Below, in pieces: positions 4,054-28,283 of a DNA stretch of 28,285 bases. The stretch spans positions 1 through 28,285 of the forward strand of contig CAVVJT010000001.1 of the NCBI GenBank assembly GCA_963748625.1, read 5' to 3'. Made by a program: the position numbers and the translations under genes. The notes beneath the pieces are model-generated. The model was not told the DNA's origin. It saw only the letters and a program-made list of their open reading frames with translations, and did no database searches. Origin of the DNA: an uncultured Chloroflexia bacterium (GTDB lineage: Bacteria > Chloroflexota > Limnocylindria > Limnocylindrales > CSP1-4). Every line of letters starts with the position of its first letter. Position 1 is the stretch's first letter.

Positions 4054-4061
4054 CCGCGTCC

Positions 4062-5033: not shown

Positions 5034-5072
5034 GGTCGTGCGCCAGCGGCAATACTCCGCGACCGCGCTGCC

Positions 5073-10743: not shown

Positions 10744-10935
10744 CGGCGTCTCCGGGCCGCGCGCGACCGGACCCCTGCCGGCCAGCATGCGGATCGTGCG
10801 CCGCCCGCGCCCGCCGGGACAGGGCCGTCCGCCCTGCAACGAGGGCCGCATCGCACCTTGGTCCCGGCGCGGCGCGGCGCAATGCTTGGGTTGGCTGCAG
10901 TCCGTCGCGCGCCAACAGCCGCCAGGGAGAGGCCG

Positions 10936-11829
10936 ATGCTGCCGGTCGTCGCCGCCGTCGCGCCCGCGTGTGGCGGTTGCGGGCGCCCCCCCGGACCCGG
11001 TGACCGGTTCTGTGCGGGCTGCGGGGGCCATCTCGAGTCGGCCGCGCAATCTGCGCCACCGGTGCCGGTCTCCTCGCCACGGGTGCCGGTCTCTGCGCCA
11101 CCGGTGCCGGTCTCCTCGCCGCCGGCGCCGCCAGGACCCCCTGGAGCGGCGACCGCGCCGCCGGCCTCGCCTCCCCCACGTCCGGTGTCGGCGTCGCCAG
11201 GCGTGCCCGGTCCCCAGGTGTCCGTCGGCGGCGTGCCCTCGTCGGTCGGGCGGCGCGCGTCGGGCATTGGCTGGGTCGGTGTCGTGGCCGTTGCGCTGCT
11301 GTTTGCGGTCGGAAGCTCGGCCGTGGTGGTCGCGGGACTCGGGGAGACCCGGCCTCGGCGGATCGCGCCCACACCGGGAGCCGCTGCCCCTGCCGACCCG
11401 GACGGTATCCCCGCCGCCGTTGTCGACGACCGCCTGTTCGACGGCAGCTCCGTCGTCGCGGACGAGCCGTTCACCATCCGTGTCGCAGCCGCCAACCCGG
11501 CGTCGAGGGCCACCGACCCGGTGTGGCTCGTCCTGGAGTGGCGGCCCGCCGACGCCGATCCAGGTCAGGCAGCCGACGGCACCGTCATCGCGTGCGATCC
11601 GGCCGACTGCATGTCGAGCGACGATCCCGACGCCCACCGGACCGCCGTCCGCTGGCCGGGCCTCCCTCCCGGGACGGAGACGACCTACGAGGTGACGGTC
11701 CAGGTGACCGGCATCGAGCCCGGCGACACCTTCCGCTACCACGCGACCGCCGGATCCGGATCACGGCCGGACGCCATCGACGCCGGGAGCGCCTGGACCC
11801 TCGAGCTCGCCGTGGAGGCGCAGGAATAG
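10936..11829 (+). CDS. Zinc-ribbon domain single-pass membrane protein, ~297 aa
   Basis: CGGC...RFCAGCG zinc ribbon, a Pro-rich linker, TM segment WVGVVAVALLFAVGSSAVVVAGL and a beta-rich C-terminal domain. GGAGAGG RBS before ATG 10936. Confidence 0.7.
   Translation: MLPVVAAVAPACGGCGRPPGPGDRFCAGCGGHLESAAQSAPPVPVSSPRVPVSAPPVPVSSPPAPPGPPGAATAPPASPPPRPVSASPGVPGPQVSVGGVPSSVGRRASGIGWVGVVAVALLFAVGSSAVVVAGLGETRPRRIAPTPGAAAPADPDGIPAAVVDDRLFDGSSVVADEPFTIRVAAANPASRATDPVWLVLEWRPADADPGQAADGTVIACDPADCMSSDDPDAHRTAVRWPGLPPGTETTYEVTVQVTGIEPGDTFRYHATAGSGSRPDAIDAGSAWTLELAVEAQE
11050..11129 (+). repeat. In-frame 21-bp tandem repeat (S-A/S-P-P/R-V-P-V) x ~3.8
   Basis: Units at 11050, 11071, 11092 and a partial unit at 11113. 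Units 1 and 3 are identical. Confidence 0.85.
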
Positions 11830-13106: not shown

Positions 13107-15359
13107 TCAGTGGCGGAAGTGGCGCCGACCGGTCACCAGCATCGCGGCGCCCGCCTTCTCGACGTCCGCGAGGACCTCGGCGTCGCGCATCGAGCCGCCC
13201 GGCTGGACGATCGCGCTGACCCCGGCTTCGAGCAGGACGCGCGGGCCGTCCGGGAAGGGAAAGAATGCGTCCGAGGCGGCCACCGCGCCGGTCGCGCCCG
13301 CCTCGCCCTGGAAGGTCCGTGCCTTCTCCACCGCGCCGCGGCAGGCGTCCACGCGCGAGACCTGGCCTGAGCCGAGGCCCACGAGCATCCCGTCGCGCAC
13401 CAGCAGGATCGCGTTCGACACCACGCCGCGGCAGAGACGCCAGGCGAGGTCGAGGTCCGCCAGCTCGCGCGCCGTGGGCTGGCGTGACGTCGTGCACACC
13501 CACTCGGCGGCGTCATCGGGGAGCGTGTCGGGCGCCGTCACGAGCACGCCGCCGCCCGCCGTCCGGAACGAGCCCAGCCAGTCCACAGCGGTCGCCGAGC
13601 CACGCGACGCGTCCGCGTCGAGCGAGGGATCGACCACGAGTCGCAGGTTCGGCTTGGAGGCCAGCACCTCCCGCGCGCCCTCGTCGAACGCCGGGGCGAC
13701 CACGACCTCCAGGAAGATCGACGTCAGCCGCTCGGCCAGCGCCCGGTCCACGGTGCCGGTGATCGCCACCACGCCCCCGAACGCCGACACGGGGTCGCCC
13801 GCCAGCGCCGCCTCCCAGGCCTCGAGCAGGGTGGGCCGCTCCGCGGCGCCGCAGGGGTTGGTGTGCTTGACGATGACCACCGCAGGCCCGCGCATCAGGC
13901 GCCCGAGTGCCGCCGCCGCCGACGCGTCGAGCACGTTGTTGTACGAGAGCGCCTTGCCCTGGAGCGGCGGCTCACCGCTGGTGAACGGGCCCTCACCGAT
14001 GCGCGGCTCGCGGTCGGTGCGCCTGTAGCGGGCGGCAGGCTGGTGGGGGTTCTCGCCATACCGGAGGGTCTCCACCTTCTCCAGCGAGATCGTCAGGACC
14101 GGCGGGTACGGGTCCTCGGCGCCGGGCAGGCCCGGGTCCGGCGGGAGAGGCACGCCGGCCTCGAACATCCGGCACGGCAGCTCCGCCGCGATCCGGGCGT
14201 CATACGCCGCGGTGTGCCGGAACGCCTCGACCGCCAGGGCGGAGCGCAGGCCGAGCGGGACGGACCCGTGCTCATCGAGGGCCGCAAGGACGGCGCCATA
14301 CCGGGAGGGCGACGTGACGATCGCGACCGACGCATGGTTCTTGGCGGCGGCGCGGACCATGGACGGCCCGCCGATGTCGATCTCCTCCACCAGCTCGTCG
14401 AACGTGATCCCGGGCCTGCGCGCGGCGGCGGCGAACGGGTAGAGGTTGACGACGACGAGGTCGAAGGGCGCGATGCCGGCCGCCAGCAGGGCCTCGCGGT
14501 GGTCCGCGCGCCGGCGGTCGGCGAGGAGGCCGGCATGGACGCGGGGGTGGAGCGTCTTCACGCGGCCGTCGAGCATCTCCGGAAAGCCGGTGACGGCCGC
14601 GACGTCGGTGACTGGCAGGCCGGACTCGCGCAGGGCGCGTGCGGTACCACCCGTGGACACGAGCTCCCAGCCGCGGGCGATGAGACCACGACCCAAGTCC
14701 ACCAGGCCGGTCTTGTCGGAGACCGACAGGAGGGCGCGACGCGGGACGGGCATGGCGGCATCGGCGATGGCAGCCGAGAACGAGGCGCGCCGCGCGCCCG
14801 GTTCGACCGTGATGGCACCAGCGAGCAGGCCCGCGACGGCGCCGGGGAGCAGCCGGTGCTCGACGGGGTGGGTTCGCTCGGCCAGCGTCTCCTCGGTGTC
14901 GCCCGGCAGGACCGGGACCGCCTCCTGGGCCACGATCGGTCCGCCATCGAGCGTGGCATCGACAAGGTGCACGGTCACCCCGGTGACGGCCACACCGGCC
15001 GCAAGGGCGTCGGCGATGCCGTGAAGCCCGGGGAACGACGGCAGCAGCGACGGATGCACGTTGAGGATCCGCCCGCCGAAGCGTGCCAGGACCTCGGGCC
15101 CGACCAGGCGCAGGTAGCCGGCGAGCACCACGACGTCGGGGGCGACGACCTCAAGCGTCTCGCCCAGGATCGCGTCATTGCCACCGGGGACCACGATCGT
15201 GTCGATCCCCTGCTCCGCCGCCCAGTCGAGGCCCGCGCACGGGCGGTCGGCGAATACGAGGACCACGTCCCCGCCGAGCTCGCCGCGCCGCGCGGCCGCC
15301 ACCAGCGCCCGCAGGTTGGAGCCGGTCCCGCTCACCCCGACCGCGATCGTCCCGCTCAC
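13107..15359 (-). CDS. purH: Fused phosphoribosylglycinamide formyltransferase (PurN) + bifunctional AICAR transformylase/IMP cyclohydrolase (PurH), ~750 aa
   Basis: GTG 15359 overlaps the purM stop. PurN motifs SGTGSNL, LAGYLR, NVHPSLLP, LDGGP continue without a stop into PurH motifs ALLSVSDK, GRVKTLHP, IDIGGP, LRYGENPHQ, KHTNPCG, ASDAFFPF, RHFRH. Confidence 0.93.
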   Translation of the reverse strand: MSGTIAVGVSGTGSNLRALVAAARRGELGGDVVLVFADRPCAGLDWAAEQGIDTIVVPGGNDAILGETLEVVAPDVVVLAGYLRLVGPEVLARFGGRILNVHPSLLPSFPGLHGIADALAAGVAVTGVTVHLVDATLDGGPIVAQEAVPVLPGDTEETLAERTHPVEHRLLPGAVAGLLAGAITVEPGARRASFSAAIADAAMPVPRRALLSVSDKTGLVDLGRGLIARGWELVSTGGTARALRESGLPVTDVAAVTGFPEMLDGRVKTLHPRVHAGLLADRRRADHREALLAAGIAPFDLVVVNLYPFAAAARRPGITFDELVEEIDIGGPSMVRAAAKNHASVAIVTSPSRYGAVLAALDEHGSVPLGLRSALAVEAFRHTAAYDARIAAELPCRMFEAGVPLPPDPGLPGAEDPYPPVLTISLEKVETLRYGENPHQPAARYRRTDREPRIGEGPFTSGEPPLQGKALSYNNVLDASAAAALGRLMRGPAVVIVKHTNPCGAAERPTLLEAWEAALAGDPVSAFGGVVAITGTVDRALAERLTSIFLEVVVAPAFDEGAREVLASKPNLRLVVDPSLDADASRGSATAVDWLGSFRTAGGGVLVTAPDTLPDDAAEWVCTTSRQPTARELADLDLAWRLCRGVVSNAILLVRDGMLVGLGSGQVSRVDACRGAVEKARTFQGEAGATGAVAASDAFFPFPDGPRVLLEAGVSAIVQPGGSMRDAEVLADVEKAGAAMLVTGRRHFRH

Positions 15360-16530
15360 CGCCCCATCTCCCGCATCGGCCAGTCCAGGGTGCGCGCCGT
15401 GTCGATCTCCGCGTAGCGCCCGCCGATCGCGGACGCCTCGACCACCTCGCCGATCGTCCAGGCCTTGATCCCCAGGCCCTTGAGGATCTCCACGGCGGCA
15501 TTCGCTGCCTCGGACGGCACCACCGCGATCATCCCGATCCCCGCATTGAACGTGGCGCGCAGCTCGGCGTCGCCGATGTGCCCGAGCGCGCCCAGCACCC
15601 GGAACACCGCGGGCATCGTCCACGACGAGATGTCCACGCGGGCACCCAGGTGCTCCGGCAGCGCCCGCGGCACGTTGCCTGGCAGTCCGCCGCCGGTGAT
15701 GTGGGCGAACCCGCGCACCTCGTGTCCGGCCGCCTCGAAGGTCGTGCGCATCGTGAGCAACTGCTTCGCGTAGACCTTCGTCGGTGTGAGCAGCACGTCG
15801 CCCAGCGTCGCGTCGATGAGCTCGGGCGCCTCGAGCAGCTCGAGGCTGGACAACGAGCACCCCAGCGCCCGGCACGCGAGACCGCCCCACGGCTGGGAGA
15901 GGTCGAGCCGCTGGTCCGCGATGATCCGCCGCACCAGCGAGTACCCGTTGGCATGCAGTCCCGACGAGGCCATGCCCACGATCAGGTCGCCCGCCTTCGC
16001 AGCCGACCCGTCGAGCAGCCGCGAGCGCTCCCCCACCCCGGTGCAGAAGCCGGCCAGGTCGAACTCGTCGGGCTTCATGAGACCCGGGTGCTCCGCGGTC
16101 TCCCCACCCACGAGCGCGGCACCGGCCTGGCGGCAGCCCTCCGCGATGCCGGCAACCAGCGCGGCGACCCGCTCCGGGTCCAGCCTCCCGATCGCGATGT
16201 AGTCCAGGAACGCCACCGGCTCCGCGCCCGTGCAGGCGACGTCGTCCGCGCACATCGCCACGAGGTCGATGCCGATGGTGTCGTAGCGCCCGACGGCTGC
16301 GGCGATCGCGGTCTTCGTGCCCACACCGTCCGTGGACGACACGATGACCGGCTCGCGGTACCCGGCCGGGATCGTGAACCCCGAGCCGAACCCGCCGAGA
16401 CCGCCCAGGATCTCCGGGCGCCGCGTGGAGGCCACCGATGCGCGCATGAGCTCCACTGTCCGCTCGCCCGCCTCGACATCGACGCCCGAGGCCGCGTAGG
16501 CGGACCGGTCGGCCGACCCCTTCGCGCCGC

Positions 16531-16534
<4 letters not shown>
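15356..16534 (-). CDS. purM: Phosphoribosylformylglycinamidine cyclo-ligase (AIR synthetase), 392 aa
   Basis: YAASGVD, STDGVGTK, DLVAMC, GGETAEHPG, SSGLHANGYSL, AHITGGG, TFNAGIG. Confidence 0.97.
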
Positions 16535-17972
<1,438 letters not shown>

Positions 17973-17973
<1 letters not shown>

Positions 17974-20357
17974 CAGCCGGCCACCTCGGCACCCGGGAGT
18001 GCGGCATCGGCGACGTGGTCGTCGGCGCCTGACCCCTCCCACCCGAGCGCGCGCGGGAGCCCGTGCTCCCAGGCATGCCGGAGCTCGGCCACGCTGACCT
18101 CGAGCGCGTCCGCCAGGCGGCTCCCCCGATCCTCCGCCGCGCCCGTGGCGCCCTCGCCGGCCAGGCCGATCTGCAGGTGTGTGCCGCCGGTGGTCCCGAT
18201 GGCGGCCATGTGCAGCCCGAACTGCCGGCCAAGCAGCTCGAACGCGGGCACGTGGCGCGGCGCGACCTCGCACACCAGCCGGCTGGGGCTCTCCCCGAAG
18301 AGGGCCACCGCTGGCGAGTCGCCCACGGGGAGGCGCAGCGTCGCGCCGCGGGCGCCCCAGATGCACATCTCCGCGACGGCGACGGCGAAGCCGCCTGCCG
18401 ACACGTCCTGGCAGGCCTCGACGAGACCCCGGTCGATGGCCTCCCGGATGAACTGCTGGGTGCGCTTCTCGAGATCAAGGTCCAGGTGCGGCGGTCCGTC
18501 CCCGGGGGCGCCACCTGCGAGACGCTCGTACTCGGAGCCCGCCAGACCCGGCCCCGCCTGGCCCACGAGCAGCACGGCGTTGTCGTCCGCGGTGAACGAC
18601 GGCCCGACGCGCTTGGCGATGTCCGCGAGCAGGCCCACGATCCCGATCTCCGGCGTCGGCGCGATCGCCGAGCCCGGGGCCTCGTTGTAGAGCGAGACGT
18701 TGCCGCCCGTGACCGGGAGGCCCAGCGCGGTGCATGCGTCGGCGAGACCGCGAACCCCCTCGGCCAGGAACCAGAAGGCCTCGGGCCGGGTGGGGTCGCC
18801 GTAGTTCAGGCAGTTAGTGACGCCCAGCGGACGGGCGCCCGTGATCGACACGTTGCGCGTCGCCTCGGCCACGGACATCGCGGCGCCCAGCCACGGGTCC
18901 AGGGCACCCACGGGCGCATTGCCATCCGTGGTGGCGACGAGCGCCTTGGTGGTGCCCTTGATGCGCAGCACCGCGGCGCCCTTGCCGGGGGCCGCGACGG
19001 TGTTGGACTGGACGTTGGAGTCGTACTGCTCGAAGACCGGGTGGCGGGAGCTCAGGTTCGGCGAGCCGATGAGCGCGGTGAGCACGGCGCCCGGGTCCTG
19101 GCCGCGGAGCGGCAGGTGGTCGACGGGCTCCGCGGGGGAGCCGGGGGCCGGGGCTGCGCGGCGGCGCGACGGCGCGCGCGACTCGCGATTGAAGACGATC
19201 GCCTCGGACGCGAGCGCGCGGGCGGGCATGCGGCCGAGCTCGATGGCGCCTGGGACGGGGTTGCCGTCGGCGTCGAGGGCGCCGGAGCCGTCGGGCGCCG
19301 TGAGCACGACGATGTCCGGCTCCTCGGTGACCCGGCCGATGATCGCCACGGGCAGGTCCCATCTCTCGCAGACGGCCTTGACGGCCTCCCAGCGGTGGGG
19401 CTCCACGATCGCGACCATGCGCTCCTGTGACTCGGAGATCATGACCTCGAAGGGCTCCAGGCCGGGCTCCCGGCGCGGGATGGCGTCGAGGTCCACCAGG
19501 ATCCCGGTCCCGCCGCGATCGGCGGTCTCGCAGGTGGCGCAGGTGATCCCGGCCGCACCCAGGTCCTGGATGGAGACCGCGAGGCCCTTGGCGATGATCT
19601 CGAGGGTCGCCTCGATCAGGAGCTTCTCGGCGAAGGGGTCGCCGACCTGGACCGACGGGCGCTTGCTCGGGTCCTGGTCGCCGAAGGTCGCACTCGCCAG
19701 GACGGAGGCCCCGCCGATGCCGTCGCGGCCGGTGGCGCTGCCGTACAGGACGACGAGGTTGCCCGGGCCGTCGGCGGAGGCGTGCATGAGCATGCCGTCC
19801 TCGAGCAGGCCGATGGCCATCACGTTGACCAGCGGGTTGCCCTGGTATGACGGGTCGAAGACGAGCTCGCCGCCCACGGTGGGCACGCCGACGCAGTTGC
19901 CGTAGCCGCCGACACCGCGCACGACGCCGTCCACGAGGTGACGCGTCCTCGCGTCCGACGGATCGCCGAAGCGGAGCGCGTCGAGCACCGCGATCGGGCG
20001 GGCGCCCATGGCGAAGATGTCGCGCAGGATCCCGCCCACGCCGGTGGCCGCACCCTGGTAGGGCTCGACCGCGGACGGGTGGTTGTGACTCTCGATCTTG
20101 AAGGCCACGGCGAGCCCGTCGCCGATGGCGATGACACCGGCCTGCTCGCCGACGCCCGCGACCACGTCCTCGCCCTTCGTGGGCAGCGTCTTGAGCAGCG
20201 GCCTGGAGCTCTTGTACGAGCAGTGCTCCGACCACATGACGCTGAACATCGCCAGCTCGAGGCCGTTGGGCTCGCGGCCTTCGAGCTTCCCGCGGATCGC
20301 CTCGAGCTCCTCGTCGGTCAGCCCGAGCACCCGGTGGAGCGGCATCCCGGCGGTCAT
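17973..20357 (-). CDS. purL: Phosphoribosylformylglycinamidine synthase subunit PurL (small type), ~794 aa
   Basis: [49 protein letters not shown]. Start ATG 20357 overlaps the purQ stop. Confidence 0.97.
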
Positions 20358-21142
20358 GCCGCACCTCCCGCGACCGTGGCCGCGCCGACACCCGAGCCCG
20401 TGCCCGGGTGCGTGAACGAGATCCGCCCCGTTTGCGCCCACTCCTCCGCAGACACCACGAGCGAGCGGATGATCCCCAGGCCGTCGTCCGAGCCCAGGAT
20501 CGCCTCGACGGCGGTCTCCGGGTGAGGCATCAGGCCTGCCACGTTGCCCACGGCGTTGCGCACGCCCGCGATCCCGCGCAGCGAGCCGTTCGGGTTGCCG
20601 GCATCGTCAGGCCCGGCGACCGAGCCGTCCTTGTTCGCATAGCGCCACATGACGCCGCCGTCGCGCTCCAGCGCGTCCAGCGTGGCGTCGTCCGCGTAGT
20701 AGCAGCCCTCGCCGTGGGCGACGGGCATGCGCAGCGGGCGCTTCGCGTCCAGCTCGCGGGTGAACGGCGTGTCGAGGTGCTCCGGCAGCAGCGTGACCTC
20801 CTTGCACACGAACCGCAGGCCGCGGTTGCGCAGCAGGGCGCCGGGCACGAGGTGCGCTTCGGCGAGGACCTGGAAGCCGTTGCAGATGCCCAGGACCGGG
20901 CCTCCGCGCTGCGCGAAGTCCGCCACGGCCCGCATGACGGGGCTGAAGCGCGCGATGACGCCCGCCCGCAGGTAGTCGCCATAGGCGAAGCCGCCGGGCA
21001 GCAGGATCCCTGCGACCCCGGACAGGTCCGCGTCCTCGTGCCACAGAATCTCGGGCTGGGCACCCGCGACCGTCAGCGCGTTGACCGCGTCGATGTCGCG
21101 GTTGGAGCCCGGGAAGAGGACGATGCCGACGCGAACGGTCAT
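20354..21142 (-). CDS. purQ: Phosphoribosylformylglycinamidine synthase glutaminase subunit PurQ, 262 aa
   Basis: [35 protein letters not shown] catalytic triad. Confidence 0.97.
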
Positions 21143-21438
21143 CCGCCCACCCCTGCCGTCGCCGGCGCCTCGGCGGCCCCGAGCGATTCGACGGAGAACT
21201 GCTCCATCAGCGGGTTGGACAGGAGTTCGCCCGCGAGGTGGTCCACGGTCGCCCGAGCCGTGGCCTCGTCGCCGGCCGCGACCGTGAGCTCCACGCGGCG
21301 GCCGACCCGGACGCCGGTGACGCCGGCGATCCCCAGGTGCGGCAGGCTGCGCTCGACCGCCTTTCCCTGCGGGTCCAGGATGCCGGGCTTGGGGGTGACG
21401 TTGACCGCGAAGCGGAATGCGATCTTGAGCTCGCTCAT
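21139..21438 (-). CDS. purS: Phosphoribosylformylglycinamidine synthase subunit PurS, ~99 aa
   Basis: KPGILDPQG, VRVGR, LLSNP. ATG 21438 overlaps the purC stop. Confidence 0.93.
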   Translation of the reverse strand: MSELKIAFRFAVNVTPKPGILDPQGKAVERSLPHLGIAGVTGVRVGRRVELTVAAGDEATARATVDHLAGELLSNPLMEQFSVESLGAAEAPATAGVGG

Positions 21439-22352
21439 CGGGAGATGACGTCCTCCGAAAGGTAGCGGGCGAAGCTCGCCCCGGTGATGCGCTCGAATGC
21501 CTCGACGTAGCGCCCGCGGGTGCCGGCGGCCACGTCGTCCGGGAGCTCGGGCCCCGGCGCCGTCTTGGTCCACGGCTGCTGCTCGAGCCAGTCGCGGACG
21601 AACTGCTTGTCGTAGCTGGCCTGGGCTCGGCCCGGCTCGTACGCCGCGGCCTCCCAGAACCGTGACGAGTCGGGGGTCATCACCTCGTCGATGAGGATCA
21701 GCTCCCCGTCGGGGGTGACGCCGAACTCGTACTTGGTGTCAGCGAGGATGATCCCCGCCCGCTCGCAGATGATCGACCCGCGCGTGTAGAGCGCGAGGGA
21801 CGCGATCATGACCATGTTGGCGAGCCGGTGTCCGATGAGCTCGGCGACGCGACCCATCGGGATGTTCTCGTCGTGCTGGCCGGCAGGCGCCTTCCAGGCG
21901 GGCGTGAAGACCGGCTCCGGCAGGCGGTCCGACTCGCGCAGGCCCGGCGGGAGCTCGATGCCGCAGACGGTGCCGCCGGCCTGGTACTCCTTCCAGCCCG
22001 AACCGCTGAGGTAGCCGCGGACCACGCACTCCACCGGGAGGACCTCGGCGCGGCGGCCCAGCATCATCCGTCCCCGCAGGTCGGCCAGGACCGCCGGGTC
22101 CCCGCCGGTGAGGTCCTCGGGGAGGTCGGCCGGATCCGTGGAGAGCAGGTGGTTGGCGATGATGTCCGCGGTCTGCGCGAACCAGAACCGCGAGAGGCCG
22201 GTGAGGACGCGACCCTTGTCGGCGATGGGCGTGGGCAGGACCACGTCGAAGGCAGAGAGGCGATCCGACGCCACCAGGAGCAGGCGGTCCTCCCCCACCG
22301 CGTACAGGTCGCGGACCTTGCCGGACCGGACGAAGGCGTCAGCCAGCGGCAT
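21435..22352 (-). CDS. purC: SAICAR synthetase (ADE1-like long type), ~305 aa
   Basis: GKVRDLY, SDRLSAFD, ECVVRGYLSGS, HDENI, ADTKYEFG, DEVMTPDSSRFW, DKQFVRDW. Start ATG 22352. Confidence 0.96.
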   Translation of the reverse strand: MPLADAFVRSGKVRDLYAVGEDRLLLVASDRLSAFDVVLPTPIADKGRVLTGLSRFWFAQTADIIANHLLSTDPADLPEDLTGGDPAVLADLRGRMMLGRRAEVLPVECVVRGYLSGSGWKEYQAGGTVCGIELPPGLRESDRLPEPVFTPAWKAPAGQHDENIPMGRVAELIGHRLANMVMIASLALYTRGSIICERAGIILADTKYEFGVTPDGELILIDEVMTPDSSRFWEAAAYEPGRAQASYDKQFVRDWLEQQPWTKTAPGPELPDDVAAGTRGRYVEAFERITGASFARYLSEDVISR

Positions 22353-23703
22353 CGGAGCCCTCCCGTGCGCGACCAAGCGGGGTCGACCGCTCCCGAACGG
22401 ATGCCTCGAGGGGCTCGAGGCGGCCGATGATCGTGGGCACGTGGCGCAGGACCACGTGGTCGTCGAAGCAGGCGTCGAGATCGGCCAGCGGCAGCTTCTG
22501 GGCCACCTCCGCGTCGGTGGCGAGCAGGCCGTGGAGCGCGACCCGCTCGTCGGCGGCACGCAGGGCGTTGCGCTGGACGATGGCGTAGGCCTGCTCGCGA
22601 CTCATGCCGCCCTTCTCGACGAGGGCGACGAGGACCCGGGAGCTGGCGTGCAGACCGTGGCCACGCTCGATGTTCTCGCGCATGCGCTCGGGCCGCACGA
22701 CCAGGCCCTCCACCAGGCCCGTGGTCTTGGCGAGCATGTAGTCGAGCAGGATCGTCGCGTCCGGCAGCGTCACGCGCTCGGCGCTGCTGTGGCTGATGTC
22801 GCGCTCGTGCCACAGCGGCTGGTTCTCGAAGGCGGTGACGGCGTAGCCGCGCAGGAGGCGGGCGAGCCCGGCGATCCGCTCGGACAGGATCGGGTTGCGC
22901 TTGTGGGGCATCGCCGAGCTGCCCTTCTGGCCGCGCTTGAAGGGCTCCATGACCTCGGCGATCTCGGTGTGCTGGAGGTTGCGCACCTCGGTAGCGAGGC
23001 GCTCCAGGCTGCCACCGATGATCGCGATGGCGGCGACGAACGCGGCATGGCGGTCGCGCTGCACGATCTGCGTGCTGACCGGATCGACCCTGAGGCCCAG
23101 GTCCGCCAGCACCTCGGCCTCCAGGTCCGGCCCGAGGTGTGAGTACGTCCCGACCGGGCCGCTGATCTTGCCCGTGCCGATCTCCGTGGTGGCCTGCGCA
23201 AGGCGGTCGCGTCCTCGCGCGACCTCGAAGGCCCAGCCGGCGCACTTGAGGCCGAAGGTCGTGGGCTCCGCGTGGACGCTGTGGGTGCGGCCCATCATCA
23301 CGGTGCCGGCCTCCTGGCGCGCCCGGGCGATGAGCGCGAGGATCAGTCTGTCGGCCCCGGCGAGGAGCTGCTCCCCCGCCCCCTTGAGCTGGAGGGCGAG
23401 CGCGGTGTCAACCACGTCCGATGACGTGAGGCCAAGGTGCAGGAAACGTCCGTCCGGACCCACCGTCTCGGCAACCTGGGAGACGAACGCGATCACGTCG
23501 TGGTCGGTCGTGAGCTCGATCTCGTTGATCCGCTCCACGTTGACGACGGCCCTGGCCTCGATCGTCGCGAGCGCGGTCGCCGGCACCAGGCCGCGGCGCA
23601 CCTGGGCGCGGCAGACGGCGACCTCCACCTCGAGCATGCGTTCGAAGCGGGCCTCCTCGGACCAGCGGGCGCCCATCTCGGGAAGGGTGTAGCGGCGGAT
23701 CAT
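22339..23703 (-). CDS. purB: Adenylosuccinate lyase, ~454 aa
   Basis: MIRRY start, HDVIAF, HLGLTSSD, GRTH, GSSAMPHKRNP, WHERDISHSS. ATG overlaps the purD stop. Confidence 0.97.
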   Translation of the reverse strand: MIRRYTLPEMGARWSEEARFERMLEVEVAVCRAQVRRGLVPATALATIEARAVVNVERINEIELTTDHDVIAFVSQVAETVGPDGRFLHLGLTSSDVVDTALALQLKGAGEQLLAGADRLILALIARARQEAGTVMMGRTHSVHAEPTTFGLKCAGWAFEVARGRDRLAQATTEIGTGKISGPVGTYSHLGPDLEAEVLADLGLRVDPVSTQIVQRDRHAAFVAAIAIIGGSLERLATEVRNLQHTEIAEVMEPFKRGQKGSSAMPHKRNPILSERIAGLARLLRGYAVTAFENQPLWHERDISHSSAERVTLPDATILLDYMLAKTTGLVEGLVVRPERMRENIERGHGLHASSRVLVALVEKGGMSREQAYAIVQRNALRAADERVALHGLLATDAEVAQKLPLADLDACFDDHVVLRHVPTIIGRLEPLEASVRERSTPLGRAREGSDAAG

Positions 23704-25025
23704 CGGGTGGTCTCCGGGAGCGTGGCGGCGATGTCGCGGCGGCGGTGCATGCCGTCCCACGTGACGGCGTCGGCGGCATGCTCGGCTGCGGCGCGTGCCG
23801 AGGGGATGTCCAGGCCGAGCGCCGTGACAGCGAGAACGCGGCCCCCGTTGGTCCCGAAGCCGCCCTCGGGTCGCTGGCGGGCGGCGGTGCCCGCGTGGAA
23901 GACGAGGGCGCCGAGCCTGAGGGCCTCGTCGAGGCCGTCGATCGGGTCGCCCCTGCGCGGATCGTTGGGGTAGCCCTTCGCGGCCAGCACGATGGTGACG
24001 GCCGCCTCGTCCCGCGTGGGGAGGTGGGCAGGCAGTCCGTTCGGGAGGCCGGTGGTCGCGGCGGCGAGGAGGACCTGCGCGAGGTCCGCGTCGAGACGCG
24101 GCAGGATCGCCTGGGTCTCGGGATCGCCCAGTCGGACGTTGGTCTCGAGCAGCGCGGGCCCGGTCGCGGTGAGCATGAGCCCCGCGTACAGGAAGCCCCG
24201 GAACGGGGTGCCCCGGCGGGCCATCTCGGCGAGGATCGGCAGGTGCACAGTCGTCAGGACGCGGTCGACATCGGCGTCGGTGAGGTCCGGCAGTGGCGAG
24301 TACGCGCCCATGCCGCCGGTGTTGGGACCCTTGTCGCCGCCGCACAGGCGCTTGTGGTCACGGGCCGCGGGGAGGGCGACGGCGCGGGTGCCGTCACAGA
24401 TGGCGATGACGCTCGCCTCCGGGCCCTCGAGCCGCTCCTCGAGGACGAGGGCGGGCTCACCCGGTGCGCGGCCGGCCAGGAACGACGGCGCCAGCTCGAG
24501 CGCCTGCTCAAGGGAGTCGGTGACGATGACGCCCTTGCCCGCCGCGAGGCCGTCGGCCTTGAGCACGGCACCTGCACCATCGGCCGCCAGCTCCCGGATG
24601 AAGTCGAGCGCCGCGGGCTCCTCGCCACCGGCGAAGGCGCGCGCGCGCGCCATGCGGACGCCGGCGGCTTCGGCCACCTCGTGGCAGAACGCCTTTGACG
24701 TCTCCAGGCGGGCGGCGGCCGCCACCGGGCCGAAGACCGGGATCCGGGCCTCCTGCAGGGCGTCGGCAACCCCGGCGCCAAGTGGTGCCTCGGGCCCCAC
24801 GACGACCAGGTCCACCGCCTCCGCCTGCGCAAGCGCGACCACGGCCGCGGGATCGAGCGGGTTCACGGGCTCGCATCGGACCCCGTGGGTCGTCGCGATC
24901 CCGGCGCTGCCCGGCGCGCATACCACCTCGGCCACGCCTGCCTCGCCTGCCAGCTTCCACGCGAGCGCGTGCTCGCGCCCGCCGCCGCCGAGGACGAGCA
25001 CCCGCGAGGGGACGGCGAGGGTCAC
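23700..25025 (-). CDS. purD: Phosphoribosylamine--glycine ligase, ~441 aa
   Basis: Has its own GTG start at 25025 with a GGAGG RBS. VLGGGGREHAL, VGPEAPL, KADGLAAGKGV, RDHKR, GPNTGGMGAYSP, RLGDPE, GGRVL. Confidence 0.95.
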   Translation of the reverse strand: MTLAVPSRVLVLGGGGREHALAWKLAGEAGVAEVVCAPGSAGIATTHGVRCEPVNPLDPAAVVALAQAEAVDLVVVGPEAPLGAGVADALQEARIPVFGPVAAAARLETSKAFCHEVAEAAGVRMARARAFAGGEEPAALDFIRELAADGAGAVLKADGLAAGKGVIVTDSLEQALELAPSFLAGRAPGEPALVLEERLEGPEASVIAICDGTRAVALPAARDHKRLCGGDKGPNTGGMGAYSPLPDLTDADVDRVLTTVHLPILAEMARRGTPFRGFLYAGLMLTATGPALLETNVRLGDPETQAILPRLDADLAQVLLAAATTGLPNGLPAHLPTRDEAAVTIVLAAKGYPNDPRRGDPIDGLDEALRLGALVFHAGTAARQRPEGGFGTNGGRVLAVTALGLDIPSARAAAEHAADAVTWDGMHRRRDIAATLPETTR

Positions 25026-25054
25026 AGCTGGCCTCCGTCGGGACGGTCGATGGC

Positions 25055-26363
25055 TCAGGCCGGCATCTGCGGGCGGTGGCGCATCGGCCGCCAGGCCCGC
25101 TCGATGGTCTGGGTCCGCTCCGGGCCCACGCTCACGAACACGATCGGCACGCCCGCATGATCCTCGAGCGCTTGGACGTAGCGGCGGGCGGCTTCGGGGA
25201 GGTCGGCGAGGCTGCGCACGTCGTGGATCGGCTGCTCCCAGCCTTCGAAATCCTCGTAGATCGGGACGGCTCGCTCGAGCGCGGAGCCCGAGGACGGCCA
25301 GCTCGTCCACGCGCTTGCCGTCGAGGTCGTACGCGACGCAGAGCTTGATCGTCTCGATGCCGGACAGGATGTCGAGCTTGTTGAGCACGATGGCGGAGTT
25401 GGAGTTGACCGCGACCGCGTACCGCAGCGGCACGGTGTCGAACCAGCCGACACGGCGGGCGCGCCCGGTGACGGTGCCGAACTCGTGGCCGCGCTCCGCG
25501 ATCCCCTTGCCGATGTCGTCGAACAGCTCGGTCGGGAACGGGCCCGACCCCACGCGGGTGGAGTAGGCCTTCATCACGCCGATGACCTCGTCCACCTGGA
25601 GCGGGCCGATGCCGCCACCGGTGCAGGCGCCGCCCGCCACCGGGTTGGAGCTGGTGACGAAGGGGTACGAGCCGTGGTCCAGGTCCAGCAGCGCGCCCTG
25701 GGCACCTTCGAGCAGGACGTGGTCACCGCGCCGCAGGGCGTCCTGGACGAGCCAGGTGGTGTCGTCCATGTGCGCCTCGATGCGGGTGCCCCACTCCATG
25801 CACTGCGCCACGAGCGGCTCCACCTCGAAGGTGTCTGCCCCCATCGACGCCAGCAGGAGGTTCTTGTCCGGGAGCGCACGCCCGATGCGCTCGCGCAGGA
25901 CCGGCTCGTTGACCAGATCCTCGATCCGGATGCCCAGGCGCCAGGCGCGGTCGCCGTACGTGGGGCCGATGCCGCGGCCCGTCGTGCCCACCTTCGCGCC
26001 GCCAAGGCGGGTCTCGTTCGCCTTATCGAGGGCGACGTGGTACGGCATGATCACGTGCGCGCTGCGGCTGACGCGGATCTTGCTGGTGTCCACGCCCTTG
26101 CCCGCGAGCATGTCCATCTCGCGGAGCAGCGTGGCCGGGTTGACCACCACGCCGTTGCCGATCACCGACGTGATGTGGGGGTACATCACGCCCGACGGGC
26201 ACAGTTGGAGCTTGATCGTCTCGCTGCCCACCACCACGGTGTGGCCGGCGTTGTCGCCACCCTGGTAGCGCACCACCATCGCCACGTGCTCGGCGAGGAA
26301 GTCGGTGGTCTTCCCCTTTCCCTCGTCGCCCCACTGGAGGCCGGTGATCACGGTCGCGGGCAT
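25055..26363 (-). CDS. purA: Adenylosuccinate synthetase, interrupted by a 1-nt frameshift near 25301-25304 (~435 aa if corrected). Possible pseudogene or sequence error.
   Basis: GLQWGDEGKG, QGGDNAGHT, GTTGRGIGP, EGAQG, TRVGSGPFPTE, EFGTVTGR and NKLD lie in one frame. The C-terminus (PIYEDFEGW...LPEAARRY...VSVGPER) lies in the adjacent frame, ending at 25055. Confidence 0.93.
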
Positions 26364-26380
26364 GGCTCAGCCTCCGGACA

Positions 26381-26410
26381 CAAAAACACCCCGGCGCTCT
26401 GGGCCGGGGT
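26381..26410 (-). terminator. Intrinsic terminator/attenuator immediately upstream of the purA RBS
   Basis: Minus strand ACCCCGGC-ccagagc-GCCGGGGT-GTTTTTG, then GGAGG (26375-26371) and ATG 26363. Confidence 0.8.
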
Positions 26411-26565
26411 TCTGGATACACGTCTCCCGCGTCTGCCCGCCGGTGACCTGGCGGACCGGGTGATCGAAGGTGCGATCCCGTCTCACGGGGCGGATCCCGC
26501 GCCTTCCTCGAGCAACGGTTGTCCCTCCATCGCGGGGCCGGTCAAGGGCCGGCTTCCGAGGAAGG
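26381..26565 (-). ncRNA. Structured 5' leader of the pur operon, candidate riboswitch (class unassigned)
   Basis: Multiple hand-identified stems, two loop-loop complementarities and an alternative pairing between a -10 box and a terminator (details in findings). Confidence 0.6.
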
Positions 26566-26568
26566 GCG

Positions 26569-26574
26569 AGTATA
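26569..26574 (-). promoter_or_regulatory. Putative -10 element (TATACT) of the pur operon promoter
   Basis: TATACT lies directly upstream of the first leader helix. No convincing -35. Confidence 0.55.
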
Positions 26575-26635
26575 CGCGACGGGGGTGGCGCCCGACACGC
26601 CGGCGCGGGTTGCGGATCGGGGTCGAACAGGCCCA

Positions 26636-26822
26636 GCCCGACGGTCGTGTGCGGAGTGACGAGCGCAACTTCCGGTTGCACCGAACGGATTCGCCGCCCG
26701 TCAGCCAGGAGTTCGCTGCGACTGAACAGTCGGCCGGCCGTCGGGCCGTCACGACGCCTTCCGCGGTCGTGTCGTTCGGCCGAGTCGGACAACCGGACGC
26801 GTCACTGCAGATCCGTTCGGTG
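26636..26822. repeat. Inverted-repeat-rich intergenic element (REPIN/MITE-like or ncRNA)
   Basis: caccgaacggat 26679-26690 / atccgttcggtg 26811-26822, tccggttg 26671-26678 / caaccgga 26790-26797, agtgacg 26655-26661 / cgtcact 26800-26806, gcccgacgg 26636-26644 / ccgtcgggc 26738-26746. Confidence 0.5.
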
Positions 26823-26962
26823 GGGCTGAACCACGATGGCAATCGCGGTGCGACCCCGGTACATAAGCGCGCGGTGAGTGTGGCGTGAGTCCGGGTGCAG
26901 TGACGGTGCGTACGGTGTGCATCCCGTCGCCCCCGCCCGCCACAGCCGAAAGGAGACCCCGG

Positions 26963-27448
26963 ATGAACCGGGTCACGCTGACCGGTCGCCTCACACGCGA
27001 CCCCGAGCTCCGCACCACCGCCGGCGGCAAGGCGGTCGTCCAGTTCTCGATCGCCAGCCACGAGTTCGTGGGTGGCAAGGAGAAGTCGGAATTCCATTCG
27101 ATCGTGGCGTGGAACCGCCTCGCGGAGACGTGCGGCCGGTACCTCGGCAAGGGCCAGCAGGTGGCTGTCGAGGGCCGCATCCAGACGCGGACGTGGGACG
27201 ACGCCGACGGCAAGCGGCACTGGAAGACGGAGATCGTGGCGTCGTCGGTGGAGATGCTCGCGGGCCGGCGGCGCCGTGACTACAGCGGCGACCAGGCCGC
27301 CGATGCCCTTGAGGCGCAGGCCCAGGCGGCGGGCGTGCCGTCGGACGCGTCGGAGCCGATGGCGGACGACAGCGGCTTCGCGGTCATGCCGGTCGAGGAC
27401 GAGGACGACGAGGAGGACGAGTTGCTCGAGGAGGCCGTCGCGGCCTAG
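26963..27448 (+). CDS. ssb: Single-stranded DNA-binding protein, ~161 aa
   Basis: AAGGAG RBS. MNRVTLTGRLTRDPELRTT, YLGKGQQVAVEGRIQTRTW and TEIVA form the OB fold, followed by an acidic tail. Confidence 0.95.
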   Translation: MNRVTLTGRLTRDPELRTTAGGKAVVQFSIASHEFVGGKEKSEFHSIVAWNRLAETCGRYLGKGQQVAVEGRIQTRTWDDADGKRHWKTEIVASSVEMLAGRRRRDYSGDQAADALEAQAQAAGVPSDASEPMADDSGFAVMPVEDEDDEEDELLEEAVAA

Positions 27449-27827: not shown

Positions 27828-28283
27828 ATGCGGCTCGTCGACGCGAACGTCCTGCTGTACGCCGTGAACGAGTCGAGCCCGCACAACGAGCCGGCGCGTG
27901 ACTGGCTCGACCGGGCTCTCGCGTCGGACGAGACCATCGGGCTCCCGTGGACGTCGCTCCTGGCGTTCATCCGCCTTGCCACGCACCCGGCCGTCTTCCC
28001 CCACCCGCTCCAGCTTGACGATGCGCTGCGCGTGGTCCGGCTCTGGCTGGCGGCACCTTCGGCGATCCCGGTGGGGCCGGGTGACCGCCACGTGGCAATC
28101 CTCTCAGGCCTCCTCGCGAGCAGCGGCACCGGGGGCAACCTCGTGACCGACGCCCACCTGGCTGCGCTCGCCATCGAGCACGACGCGACGCTGGTCTCCT
28201 TCGACCGGGATTTCGGGCGGTTCGACGGCCTCGCCTGGGAGCTGCCCGCTGCCGCCCAGGGCAGCCGCCGCGGCAAGCGCTGA
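27828..28283 (+). CDS. vapC: VapC PIN-domain ribonuclease toxin, 151 aa
   Basis: LVDANVLLYA, GNLVTDAHLAALAIEH and SFDRDF carry the PIN acidic residues. Mycobacterial-type VapC style. Confidence 0.92.
   Translation: MRLVDANVLLYAVNESSPHNEPARDWLDRALASDETIGLPWTSLLAFIRLATHPAVFPHPLQLDDALRVVRLWLAAPSAIPVGPGDRHVAILSGLLASSGTGGNLVTDAHLAALAIEHDATLVSFDRDFGRFDGLAWELPAAAQGSRRGKR

What the first reader, a model, noticed from the sequence alone, without database searches (positions are those of the whole stretch)
26381..26574. Candidate unclassified (possibly tandem) riboswitch controlling the whole purine operon
Seen on the minus strand: TATACT, ~150 nt of dense structure, then an 8-bp terminator with a U-tract 5 nt before the purA RBS. 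Domain 1 is a three-way junction. P1 is CCUUCCUCG/CGAGGAAGG (26565-26557 with 26510-26502), P2 is GCCGG-[CCCUUGA]-CCGGC and P3 is GCGAUGG-[AGGGACAA]-CCGUUGC, and the two loops are complementary (CCCU/AGGG). Domain 2 is closed by GGAUCCGC/GUGUAUCC and contains CCCG-UGAGA-CGGG, GAUCG-[CACCUU]-CGAUC and GUCCGCC-[AGGUCACC]-GGCGGGC, again with complementary loops (ACCU/AGGU). GAAGGCGCG (26506-26498) can alternatively pair with CGCACCUUC (26474-26466), which would break P1, as expected of a switch. Established: pur operons are controlled by guanine, PRPP (ykkC subtype 2b), ZTP and tandem guanine-PRPP riboswitches. Domain 1 has purine-riboswitch-like topology but lacks the UAUAA/UUUCUAC core, and it has GGAA...CUUGAC...CAACCG words reminiscent of c-di-GMP-II. 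Domain 2 has words reminiscent of ykkC (GGGAUCCGC, GGUCCG, GGCGGG, CGGGAG) but lacks the AAAAG loop. Inference: this is a new or strongly diverged nucleotide-sensing element. I did not find a clear antiterminator helix.
Basis: partly seen in the sequence, partly recalled or inferred. Interest (0 to 1): 0.78.

Follow-up and report, generated by a model that had tools for sequence, protein, structure and literature searches.

The report
Translated RNA leader controlling purine operon
In front of the purine-synthesis genes of a family of uncultured Chloroflexota lies a conserved folded RNA leader that no RNA catalogue lists, in which a small reading frame starts in a hairpin loop, runs through a transcription stop signal and ends at the start of the first gene, which points to an undescribed way of tying translation to purine gene control.

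Summary

The element is real. A covariance model finds it in 104 of 151 genomes of the family (36 of 49 genera), once per genome as a rule. It lies directly upstream of purA in 95 of 96 loci. It was not found in 147 other genomes of the phylum, and Rfam gives no match.

Five helices covary: 31 of 36 pairs have changes on both sides, and 0 of 500 shuffles reach this.

An ORF starts at an invariant GUG in the apical loop of the central hairpin. It runs through the terminator and stops within -10 to +13 nt of the purA start in 92 of 92 loci (control frame: 4 of 92). The distance from GUG to the purA start takes 43 different values.

My reading is a translation-coupled attenuator. A ribosome on the leader ORF suppresses the terminator and passes on to purA, and the conserved fold is the sensor. 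The signal is unknown. This is neither a tandem riboswitch nor a known class.

The parts
26569..26574 (-). -10 promoter box TATACT. In most relatives it is the extended form TGnTATACT.
   Evidence: A TAnAnT box lies a short distance upstream of the motif in the listed upstream regions of the 100 loci, mostly 7 nt before model position 1. Conservation within the genus begins exactly here. No -35 box was found by the scan.
26411..26568 (-). Conserved structured leader core (P1, P2, P3, P4, P5 and the 3' tail).
   Evidence: Covariance models R1 and R2 match G000:C1:26411-26568 with 141.3 and 127.9 bits. Covariation is reported.
26556..26565 (-). P1 5' strand (CCUUCCUCGG). It is anti-Shine-Dalgarno-like and lies at the very 5' end of the transcript.
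   Evidence: P1 has 6 of 7 pairs with changes on both sides on A3 and 5 of 5 on A5.
26502..26511 (-). P1 3' strand, a purine tract UCGAGGAAGG. Its last bases (GAAGG) are also the 5' strand of P4a.
   Evidence: Model positions 62 and 63 pair with both P1 and P4a, and both pairings show compensatory changes.
26537..26553 (-). P2, a variable hairpin inside P1.
   Evidence: Compensatory variants are seen within the genus: GGCU/AGCC, GGCC/GGCC, GGUC/GACC. A hairpin of at least 4 bp folds there in 52 of 99 sequences, and the segment is absent in 11.
26512..26533 (-). P3 hairpin with a conserved purine-rich (GGAGG-like) loop.
   Evidence: 4 of 7 pairs have changes on both sides, and 74.9% of cells are paired.
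26466..26506 (-). P4, the long central hairpin: GAAGG-C-GCG...AUCCG [C CCCGUGAG A] CGGGAU...CGC-A-CCUUC.
   Evidence: On the MAFFT alignment A4, which was not fitted to this helix: 78.4% paired against 35-46% slid, 12 of 15 pairs changed on both sides, and 0 of 500 shuffles reach four of the five measures. The closing pair covaries as U.G (42 rows) or C.A (34 rows).
26484..26486 (-). GUG in the apical loop of P4, the proposed start codon of the leader ORF.
   Evidence: GUG stands in this column in 93 of 100 rows. In 68 of 100 rows no other canonical in-frame start lies between the predicted transcription start (or the last in-frame stop) and this codon. 12 rows have an in-frame stop upstream of it.
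26367..26486 (-). Leader ORF (39 codons plus UGA in the window). It spans the P4 3' strand, P5, the tail, the terminator and the purA Shine-Dalgarno sequence.
   Evidence: Translated without an internal stop. In 92 of 92 relatives the same frame ends within -10 to +13 of the purA start.
26435..26456 (-). P5 hairpin. The sequence varies and the structure is kept.
   Evidence: 9 of 9 pairs have changes on both sides, and 87.2% of cells are paired. Its length varies in steps of three bases.
26411..26434 (-). Conserved single-stranded 3' tail (AGACGCGGGAGACGUGUAUCCAGA; family consensus ..GGGnGnnGUnUAnCCnGG).
   Evidence: Per-position conservation is given. Its last bases are the foot of the terminator stem in most relatives.
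26380..26410 (-). Intrinsic terminator: an 8-bp stem, a 7-nt loop and a U-tract.
   Evidence: The scan finds it at 26410-26388. A hairpin followed by a U-rich tail is found in 96 of 99 relatives with enough downstream sequence.
26361..26375 (-). purA Shine-Dalgarno GGAGG (26375-26371), leader-ORF stop UGA (26369-26367) and purA AUG (26363-26361).
   Evidence: purA is identified by Pfam Adenylsucc_synt, E = 1.4e-144.
26483..26515 (-). Optional 10-codon mini-ORF (UUG...UGA). Its stop overlaps the loop GUG as GUGA.
   Evidence: The 10-codon UUG form with a Shine-Dalgarno-like word 3-11 nt upstream is scored in 53 of 100 rows. 27 rows have no canonical start in that frame.
13107..26363 (-). The operon behind the leader: purA, purD, purB, purC, purQ, purL, purF, purM, purN, purH.
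   Evidence: Pfam matches.

Best explanation
This is a translation-coupled transcription attenuator with a riboswitch-like sensor domain.

How I think it works:
1. Transcription starts about 7 nt after a conserved (TGn)TATACT box.
2. The first ~155 nt fold into P1 (with the optional P2 and P3), the long hairpin P4, the hairpin P5 and a conserved tail.
3. An intrinsic terminator follows at once.
4. A leader ORF begins at the invariant GUG in the apical loop of P4. It reads through the P4 3' strand, P5, the tail, the terminator and a variable spacer. It stops on or beside the purA start codon, mostly as UGAUG.
5. When no ribosome follows the polymerase, the terminator forms and the pur operon is off.
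6. When a ribosome starts at the loop GUG and keeps close to the polymerase, it covers the terminator stem and transcription reads through. The terminating ribosome then restarts at purA.
7. The conserved fold decides how often the ribosome gets on. The GUG is enclosed by the P4 stem, and the purine tract GAGGAAGG is held by two anti-Shine-Dalgarno-like strands.
8. I take the fold to be stabilised by a purine-pathway signal, a nucleotide or a base, so that the bound state means off.

Shown by computation: the conservation, the link to purA, the promoter box, the helices, the terminator, and the kept frame with its stop position.

Inferred: that the ORF is translated, that GUG is its start, that the ribosome acts as antiterminator, and the nature and direction of the signal.
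For: Conservation and gene link:
- R1 matches 104 of 151 family genomes and 36 of 49 genera.
- R2 matches 94 of 108 family genomes in the order sample.
- 95 of 96 loci have purA directly downstream. The 96th has only 9 nt of downstream sequence.

Structure:
- P4 on an unfitted MAFFT alignment.
- All helices on A5: 80.9% paired against 36-42% slid, 31 of 36 pairs with double changes, 0 of 500 shuffles.
- The top mutual-information pairs are these same helices.

Terminator: found in 96 of 99 loci.

Reading frame:
- From the loop GUG the ORF ends at -2 (53 rows), +13 (18), -4 (8), -3 (6), -5 (3), +1 (2), -6 (1) or -10 (1) relative to the purA start. That is 92 of 92 rows.
- In control frame +2 this holds for 4 of 92 rows.
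- There are 43 distinct GUG-to-start distances, from 110 to 452 nt.
- The distance from the GUG to the tail is a multiple of three in 93 of 99 rows, over lengths of 51 to 69 nt.

Start codon: GUG in 93 of 100 rows, and it is the first canonical in-frame start in 68 of 100.

Coupling: outside the window's genus, 44 of 85 purA starts have no Shine-Dalgarno 4-mer.

Selection is on the RNA, not on a peptide:
- The encoded residues follow the base-pair swaps.
- The spacer has GC of 0.73/0.77/0.77 by codon position, against 0.69/0.40/0.95 in purA.

Precedent: the pyrBI attenuator's terminator lies inside its 135-bp leader-peptide gene, and a closely following ribosome represses terminators (PMC4824070, passages read).
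Against: - No direct evidence of transcription ends or of translation. The only RNA data are metatranscriptome contigs, which cannot show ends.
- There is no Shine-Dalgarno sequence at a working distance before the GUG. The purine tract ends 15 nt upstream.
- The GUG sits in an 8-nt loop closed by a covarying stem, which should hinder initiation unless the stem opens.
- 7 of 100 rows lack GUG in that column, yet most of them keep the frame. The start may therefore lie elsewhere in some lineages.
- No ligand, binding pocket or clearly exclusive alternative fold was shown.
- The loop CCC and the tail GGG are invariant, so a pseudoknot between them cannot be tested by covariation.
- Related genomes are not independent observations.
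- Alignments A3 and A5 were fitted to the model's helices P1, P3 and P5. A5 was also fitted to P4.
Confidence: 0.45

Rival explanations
1. A pyrBI-type attenuator that senses nucleotides and has no ligand-binding RNA. The architecture is the same, with a leader ORF across the terminator. The signal is the speed of RNA polymerase. When ATP or GTP is scarce, the polymerase pauses, with P5 as a pause hairpin and the conserved tail as the pause site. The ribosome catches up and the terminator is suppressed.
For: - All the frame and terminator evidence applies equally here.
- P5 keeps its structure but not its sequence. It is followed by a conserved, unpaired, A/U-containing tail just before the terminator, as expected of a hairpin-dependent pause.
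- Precedents: UTP-sensitive coupling at pyrBI, and ATP sensing through conserved adenines in mgtM (PMC3641672 and PMC4824070, passages read).
- No antiterminator helix is needed.
Against: - There is no run of A or of purines like the U-tract of pyrBI. The tail is a mixed sequence.
- A pause model does not explain the invariant 8-nt loop or the P1/P3/P4 architecture, which has many invariant unpaired bases.
- Low GTP would slow the ribosome too.
Confidence: 0.25
2. A leader operated by a protein. An RNA-binding protein (a PyrR-like attenuation protein, or an enzyme of the pathway acting on its own mRNA) binds the P4 loop and the tail. It blocks the loop GUG or stabilises the terminator.
For: - Invariant loop and tail sequences with variable stems fit a protein operator as well as an aptamer.
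- The start codon lies inside the presumed binding site.
- The element is limited to one family, with a diverged form in one other genus. This would fit co-evolution with a lineage-specific protein.
Against: - No candidate regulator is encoded beside the operon. The upstream neighbour is a divergent ssb.
- Rfam's PyrR-binding-site model does not match.
- A four-helix fold of 155 nt is larger than typical protein operators.
Confidence: 0.12
3. A conventional terminator riboswitch. The open frame would be incidental or would serve only to deliver ribosomes to purA.
For: - A conserved covarying fold, a strict gene link and a terminator.
- P1 and P4a share two bases, and both pairings covary. That could be a small switch.
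Against: - 92 of 92 frames end at the purA start, and insertions and deletions come in threes. Translation must matter.
The one candidate, GGUCC/GGACC, is not kept within the genus (read from the alignment).
Confidence: 0.08
4. The conserved stretch is a small protein-coding gene, or the end of an upstream gene, coupled to purA. The 'RNA structure' would be secondary.
For: A kept open frame with a stop-start overlap.
Against: - The promoter box lies directly upstream of the motif in all loci, and the upstream gene is a divergent ssb.
- The amino acids change radically along with the base-pair swaps.
- In the tail the third codon positions are invariant while the second positions vary.
- There is no codon-position GC bias.
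- 1-nt insertions and deletions occur upstream of the GUG.
Confidence: 0.03

Closest known systems
pyrBI attenuator of Escherichia coli (leader peptide pyrL)
   Same: An intrinsic terminator lies inside a leader ORF of about 40-50 codons, just upstream of a nucleotide-biosynthesis operon. A ribosome close behind the polymerase would suppress the terminator (PMC4824070 and PMC3641672, passages read).
   Different: - The operon here is for purines, not pyrimidines.
- There is no homopolymer tract.
- The ORF is preceded and overlapped by a 155-nt covarying four-helix fold.
- The start codon sits in a hairpin loop.
- The ORF stop overlaps the structural gene's start.
- The lineage is Chloroflexota.
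mgtM ATP-sensing leader ORF of the Salmonella mgtCBR leader
   Same: A short leader ORF whose peptide is not conserved while RNA features are. A purine nucleotide level is read through the coupling of transcription and translation (PMC3641672, abstract and passages read).
   Different: mgtM works through alternative stem-loops and conserved adenines. It does not span an intrinsic terminator, and it controls a virulence and Mg2+ locus, not purine synthesis.
Riboswitches of purine operons: purine, ZTP (pfl), PRPP/ppGpp (ykkC subtype 2)
   Same: A conserved structured 5' leader with an intrinsic terminator in front of pur genes.
   Different: No Rfam model of any of these scores, even at E up to 10. 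The fold differs: there are no kissing loops and no ykkC or pfl core. The expression platform here includes a translated ORF.
Termination-reinitiation coupling at overlapping stop and start codons (UGAUG, GUGA)
   Same: The stop of the upstream frame overlaps or abuts the start of the next gene (53 of 92 as UGAUG), and the downstream Shine-Dalgarno sequence is often missing.
   Different: The upstream frame is not a gene. It is a regulatory ORF embedded in a structured RNA.

Membership tests
Purine riboswitch (Rfam RF00167) | Match to the family covariance model | tested here: not met
   No match at gathering score in the window or in 12 relatives. None at E up to 10 on 26200-26900.
Purine riboswitch (Rfam RF00167) | Three-way junction with conserved loop-loop (L2-L3) pairing | tested here: not met
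   P1, P2 and P3 form a junction in the window, but the proposed CCCU/AGGG contact is paired in only 28% of cells across 100 relatives. P2 is absent in 11 of 99.
ykkC clan (guanidine-I, PRPP, ppGpp), ZTP (pfl), c-di-GMP-II | Match to the family covariance models | tested here: not met
   No match at E up to 10. No gathering-score match.
Riboswitch (generic) | Conserved structured domain supported by covariation | tested here: met
Riboswitch (generic) | Constant position upstream of functionally related genes | tested here: met
   95 of 96 loci are upstream of purA. The operon holds the purine pathway.
Riboswitch (generic) | Expression platform (terminator or sequestered ribosome site) | tested here: met
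   Terminator in 96 of 99 loci. The start codon lies in the P4 loop.
Riboswitch (generic) | Mutually exclusive alternative fold | tested here: inconclusive
   P1 and P4a share only two bases, and both pairings covary. No antiterminator helix was found.
Riboswitch (generic) | Direct binding of a small molecule | not testable with these tools
   Needs in-line probing or a binding assay.
pyrBI-type translation-coupled attenuator | Intrinsic terminator lies inside the leader ORF | tested here: met
   The ORF from the loop GUG spans the terminator and ends at the purA start in 92 of 92 rows.
pyrBI-type translation-coupled attenuator | NTP-sensitive pause tract upstream of the terminator | tested here: inconclusive
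   A conserved tail lies between P5 and the terminator, but it holds no homopolymer run. Pausing cannot be tested here.
pyrBI-type translation-coupled attenuator | The leader ORF is translated, and its translation is needed for read-through | not testable with these tools
   Supported only indirectly, by the kept frame.
Amino-acid-type leader-peptide attenuator (trpL, hisL) | Runs of regulatory codons; the ORF stops before the terminator; a 2:3 antiterminator | tested here: not met
   The peptide is not conserved and shows no conserved codon runs. The ORF extends beyond the terminator.

The most novel reading that the evidence does not exclude
This would be a new riboswitch class for a purine-pathway metabolite, with a new kind of expression platform. 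The aptamer displays the start codon of a terminator-spanning leader ORF in its own apical loop, so ligand binding decides whether a ribosome boards and acts as the antiterminator. In two thirds of the members this is part of a relay of overlapping frames: a Shine-Dalgarno sequence in the P3 loop, then a 10-codon mini-ORF, then GUGA, then the leader ORF, then UGAUG, then purA.
Probability: 0.3. Interest if true: 0.85.

Novelty: new variant of a known kind. Interest (0 to 1): 0.72.

Why it matters
If this reading is right, it would be the first purine-operon counterpart of the classical pyrBI mechanism that I could find. It sits in an uncultured lineage, Limnocylindria of the Chloroflexota, whose gene regulation is almost unknown.

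It would join two ideas that are usually treated apart: a large covarying riboswitch-like fold, and a ribosome acting as antiterminator.

It also gives a directly testable case of a start codon presented in a hairpin loop, and of stop-start relays inside a 5' leader.

In practice it adds a candidate RNA family of several hundred members to annotation. It also warns that 'non-coding' leaders in GC-rich genomes can carry reading frames under selection.

Tried and rejected
- Folding energy of the window's leader. It is not significant (z = -1.29) and was not used as support.
- Rfam. Nothing in the whole window at gathering score. At E up to 10 on the region there were only terminator-like chance matches. 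Nothing in 12 diverse members or in 20 purA loci of two sister families.
- RNAalifold on the genus alone. It gave a long-range structure with almost no covariation and found only 4 pairs on the family MAFFT alignment. Helices were therefore tested one by one.
- Within the genus, covariation is not above shuffles. The wider family sample was needed.
- A pseudoknot between the loop CCCG and the tail CGGG. Both sides are invariant, and the few loop variants are not compensated. It stays open.
- An antiterminator between the 5' GGUCC and GGACC at the foot of the terminator. It is not kept within the genus (read).
- Anchoring the frame on the motif's 3' end suggested three in-frame fusions with purA. 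Anchoring on the GUG shows stops at +13 or -2 instead, so that idea is dropped.
- The regex anchor landed on non-GUG triplets in 17 rows. It is replaced by the alignment anchor.
- A first crude terminator count gave 63 of 99 because outer pairs confused the parser. It is replaced.
- RNA evidence. Three metatranscriptome runs and one run of unrecorded type hold contigs over parts of 26342-26600. Contigs show neither ends nor strand, one reaches upstream of the -10 box, and DNA carry-over is possible. This is no support either way.
- Sister families were searched for a known riboswitch that might name the ligand by analogy. The 12 loci of family f3 have purA as an apparently leaderless GUG-start transcript directly behind a TAGCAT-like box. 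Most of the 11 loci of family f4 have a -10-like box only some tens of bases before purA (read). There is no Rfam match, so no hint came from there.
- Literature. No paper was found with Limnocylindria plus riboswitch, with purA plus riboswitch, Actinobacteria and motif, with purA plus riboswitch candidate, with purA plus leader or attenuator, or with Chloroflexi plus riboswitch candidate plus purine biosynthesis beyond the two CMfinder surveys, seen in the search listing only, whose motifs I recall to be in Rfam. Subscription journals are not in the library.
Full report
WHAT IS THERE

On the minus strand of 26361-26580 the sequence reads, in order:
- TATACT at 26574-26569;
- a GC-rich stretch of about 155 nt;
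- an 8-bp hairpin with a U-tract at 26410-26380, which the terminator scan reports as the only such site in 26300-26950, against 0.2 expected;
- GGAGG at 26375-26371;
- the ATG of an ORF whose first 355 residues are adenylosuccinate synthetase (Pfam E = 1.4e-144).

Behind purA, on the same strand, lie purD, purB, purC, purQ, purL, purF, purM, purN and purH. The next gene upstream is a divergent ssb at 26885-27448 on the plus strand. No co-directional gene runs into the leader.

IS IT MORE THAN CHANCE?

Not by energy. The MFE of -102.2 kcal/mol has z = -1.29 against dinucleotide shuffles in this 70% GC sequence.

By comparison, yes.
- The DNA of 26364-26640 matches 23 of 24 other genomes of the genus at 75-80% identity. 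A second copy lies in the same assembly.
- In the MAFFT alignment of 20 upstream regions, conservation begins exactly at the -10 box, and the DNA upstream of it cannot be aligned.
- A covariance model built from the genus (R1) matches 104 of 151 genomes of the family and 36 of 49 genera, mostly once per genome. Two of the 104, G121 and G177, are unpublished genomes. I used no sequence from them.
- A second model built from 96 family sequences (R2) matches 94 of 108 family genomes and 0 of 42 genomes of the sister family with 1.1-Mb genomes.
- Across the class, R2 matches 42 of 44 genomes in the family and 3 of 50 in a second family, all three in one genus. It matches none of the 56 genomes searched in the other three families.
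- In a phylum sample it matches 2 of 3 family genomes and 0 of 147 others.
The titles of nearly all the 80 loci shown name Chloroflexota or Candidatus Limnocylindria/Limnocylindrales MAGs.
- Four loci with other labels were checked with R2. Three (a Streptomyces, an Acidimicrobiales MAG and a Verrucomicrobiota MAG) do not match, so they are chance pattern hits. One contig labelled Verrucomicrobiia matches fully at 105.7 bits, so it is probably mislabelled or misbinned.
- 95 of 96 matched loci have purA directly downstream. The 96th ends 9 nt after the motif.
- The two better hits in the second family are also upstream of purA.

STRUCTURE

P4 is the core. It is a long hairpin, GAAGG-C-GCG..CGUCCG [Y CCCGUGAG R] CGGACG..CGC-A-CCUUC.
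- On a plain MAFFT alignment of 92 sequences, 78.4% of its cells pair, against 35-46% when the partners are slid. For this alignment I dropped one duplicate core sequence and three rows with an aberrant loop or tail (L088, L093, L094).
- 12 of 15 pairs show changes on both sides.
- No shuffle in 500 reaches the observed pairing, covariation score, double-changed cells or pair types.
- The pair that closes the loop switches between U.G (42 rows) and C.A (34 rows).

P1, P3 and P5 are supported on the model-fitted alignments, which lean towards them. On A3: 85.2% paired and 19 of 23 pairs double-changed. On A5, with all five helices: 80.9% against 36-42%, 31 of 36 pairs, and 0 of 500 shuffles. 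A mutual-information ranking that ignores the structure puts these same pairs on top.

- the domain-2 closing helix: 54% paired;
- GAUCG/CGAUC: 39%;
- the two loop-loop contacts: 28% and 45%.

It shares only two bases with P1, and both pairings show compensatory changes.

Unpaired but nearly invariant are the loop CCCGUGAG, the purine tract (U)CGAGGAAGG and the tail GGGnGnnGUnUAnCCnGG.

A hairpin followed by at least 4 U in 8 nt comes directly after the tail in 96 of 99 loci. Its 5' foot is usually the last bases of the conserved tail.

THE READING FRAME

Many purA starts read UGAUG. The gap between the motif end and the purA start is 1 modulo 3 in 79 of 99 loci, although it ranges from 37 to 382 nt.

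Every locus has a (TGn)TATACT-like box just upstream of the motif, mostly 7 nt before model position 1. The transcript therefore begins at the motif.

I anchored the frame on the alignment column of the loop GUG.
- GUG is present in 93 of 100 rows.
- The ORF that begins there ends within -10 to +13 of the A of the purA start in 92 of 92 rows that have both a GUG and an identified purA.
- The stop positions are -2 (53 rows), +13 (18), -4 (8), -3 (6), -5 (3), +1 (2), -6 (1) and -10 (1).
- Control frame +2 does so in 4 of 92 rows. Frame +1 stops at once at the loop's UGA.
- There are 43 distinct GUG-to-start distances between 110 and 452 nt. The ORF has 36 to 149 codons, with a median of 48.
- Inside the conserved RNA, the distance from the GUG to the tail is a multiple of three in 93 of 99 rows, over lengths of 51, 54, 57, 60, 63, 66 and 69 nt. 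Base pairing gives no reason for that.
- In 68 of 100 rows no other canonical in-frame start lies between the predicted transcription start (or the last in-frame stop) and the GUG. 12 rows have an in-frame stop upstream of it.
- In the window the ORF runs from 26486 to 26367: 39 codons, then UGA three bases before the purA ATG.

The product is not conserved as a protein.
- Its residues change radically wherever stems swap pairs.
- In the tail the third codon positions are invariant while the second positions vary.
- The spacer has no codon-position GC bias: 0.73/0.77/0.77, against 0.69/0.40/0.95 in purA.

Selection is therefore on the RNA and on the passage of a ribosome, not on a peptide. Outside the window's genus, 44 of 85 purA starts have no Shine-Dalgarno 4-mer. 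That fits restart by a ribosome that terminates there.

MECHANISM

The anatomy is that of the pyrBI attenuator. There the terminator lies inside a 135-bp leader-peptide gene and is suppressed only when a ribosome follows the polymerase closely (PMC4824070, passages read; PMC3641672, passages read).

I therefore read the element as a translation-coupled attenuator. With no ribosome, transcription terminates. With a ribosome on the leader ORF, transcription reads through and the ribosome is handed over to purA. This also explains why no antiterminator helix exists.

What sets it apart from pyrBI is the 155-nt covarying fold that encloses the start codon. It holds the purine tract GAGGAAGG between two anti-Shine-Dalgarno-like strands, UCCUCGA of P1 and CACCUUC of P4.

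I take this fold to be the sensor that gates initiation, and I think a small molecule of the purine pathway is the most likely effector (0.45 for the whole statement).

The main rival is NTP-sensitive pausing, with P5 as the pause hairpin and the tail as the pause site (0.25). A protein operator comes next (0.12).

In two thirds of the rows a canonical start in the +1 frame is preceded by a GGAG-like word. In 53 of 100 rows this is a 10-codon UUG frame that ends at the UGA overlapping the loop GUG. Twenty-seven rows have no such start (the window's copy is). A ribosome on this mini-ORF would open P4 and arrive at the GUG. The spacing is fixed by the RNA anyway, so this remains a lead, not a finding.

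COMPARISON AND NOVELTY

- No Rfam 15 family matches the window, 12 diverse members or 20 purA loci of the sister families.
- The 12 loci of one sister family have an apparently leaderless GUG-start purA directly behind a TAGCAT-like box. Most of the 11 loci of the other have a -10-like box only some tens of bases before purA (read). The leader is thus an innovation of this family.
- My literature searches found nothing on it. The library lacks most subscription journals.
- I file it as a new variant of a known kind: a ribosome-dependent attenuator, or a riboswitch with an unusual platform. It is not a member of any described RNA family.

LIMITS

- Everything is comparative.
- Related genomes are not independent.
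- E-values of the home-made models are rough.
- A3 and A5 are fitted to the model's helices.
- Translation, RNA ends and ligand binding are untested.
- The metatranscriptome contigs that cover parts of the leader prove nothing about ends or strand.

Noticed in passing
window 23700-26363 (-), near 25300-25310; also 25055-25453 (-): purA looks frameshifted in the window. Pfam positions 1-351 are in the frame of the ATG at 26363, while positions 349-416 are in another frame (ORF 25055-25453). The first frame runs on without a stop into purD and gives an 887-aa 'fusion' ORF. This may be an assembly error or a real frameshift.
   Followed up: partly
G000:C10:155000-160500 (L147): The same assembly holds a second copy of the leader plus purA-purD, about 87% identical in DNA over 3.4 kb (R2 127.5 bits). 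In it the purA and purD frames differ at the point where the window's copy fuses them. The assembly is rated at 7.7% contamination, so this may be a second strain rather than a duplication.
   Followed up: partly
window 26483-26515 (-): A 10-codon mini-ORF (UUG...UGA, LLEEGAGSAP) is preceded by the GGAGG-like P3 loop. Its stop overlaps the loop GUG as GUGA. The 10-codon UUG form is scored in 53 of 100 relatives, and 27 have no canonical start in that frame.
   Followed up: partly
L144 and L145 (a second family of the class, one genus): A diverged form of the leader stands upstream of purA. P1, the purine tract and the tail are kept. The P4 loop differs, and an in-frame AUG in the 3' strand of the hairpin takes the place of the loop GUG. 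The frame still stops at -2.
   Followed up: partly
L149 (G104:C386:1063-1896): A weak R2 match (29.8 bits) has a P4-like hairpin with a CCGUGAGG loop but no tail and no purA nearby. It may be a stray copy of the hairpin or a chance match.
   Followed up: no
L162 (contig titled Verrucomicrobiia MAG): It carries a full-scoring copy of the leader (105.7 bits). The contig is probably misbinned or mislabelled Limnocylindria DNA.
   Followed up: no
L271-L282 (a sister family): purA there starts with GUG 7-8 nt after a conserved TAGCAT-like box. That looks like a leaderless transcript.
   Followed up: no
window 8284-11742 (-) and 3765-5339 (-): These long ORFs of 1152 and 524 aa have no Pfam match. 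In a 70% GC genome they may be spurious.
   Followed up: no
window 27828-28283 (+): A PIN-domain ORF lies at the edge of the window, downstream of ssb.
   Followed up: no
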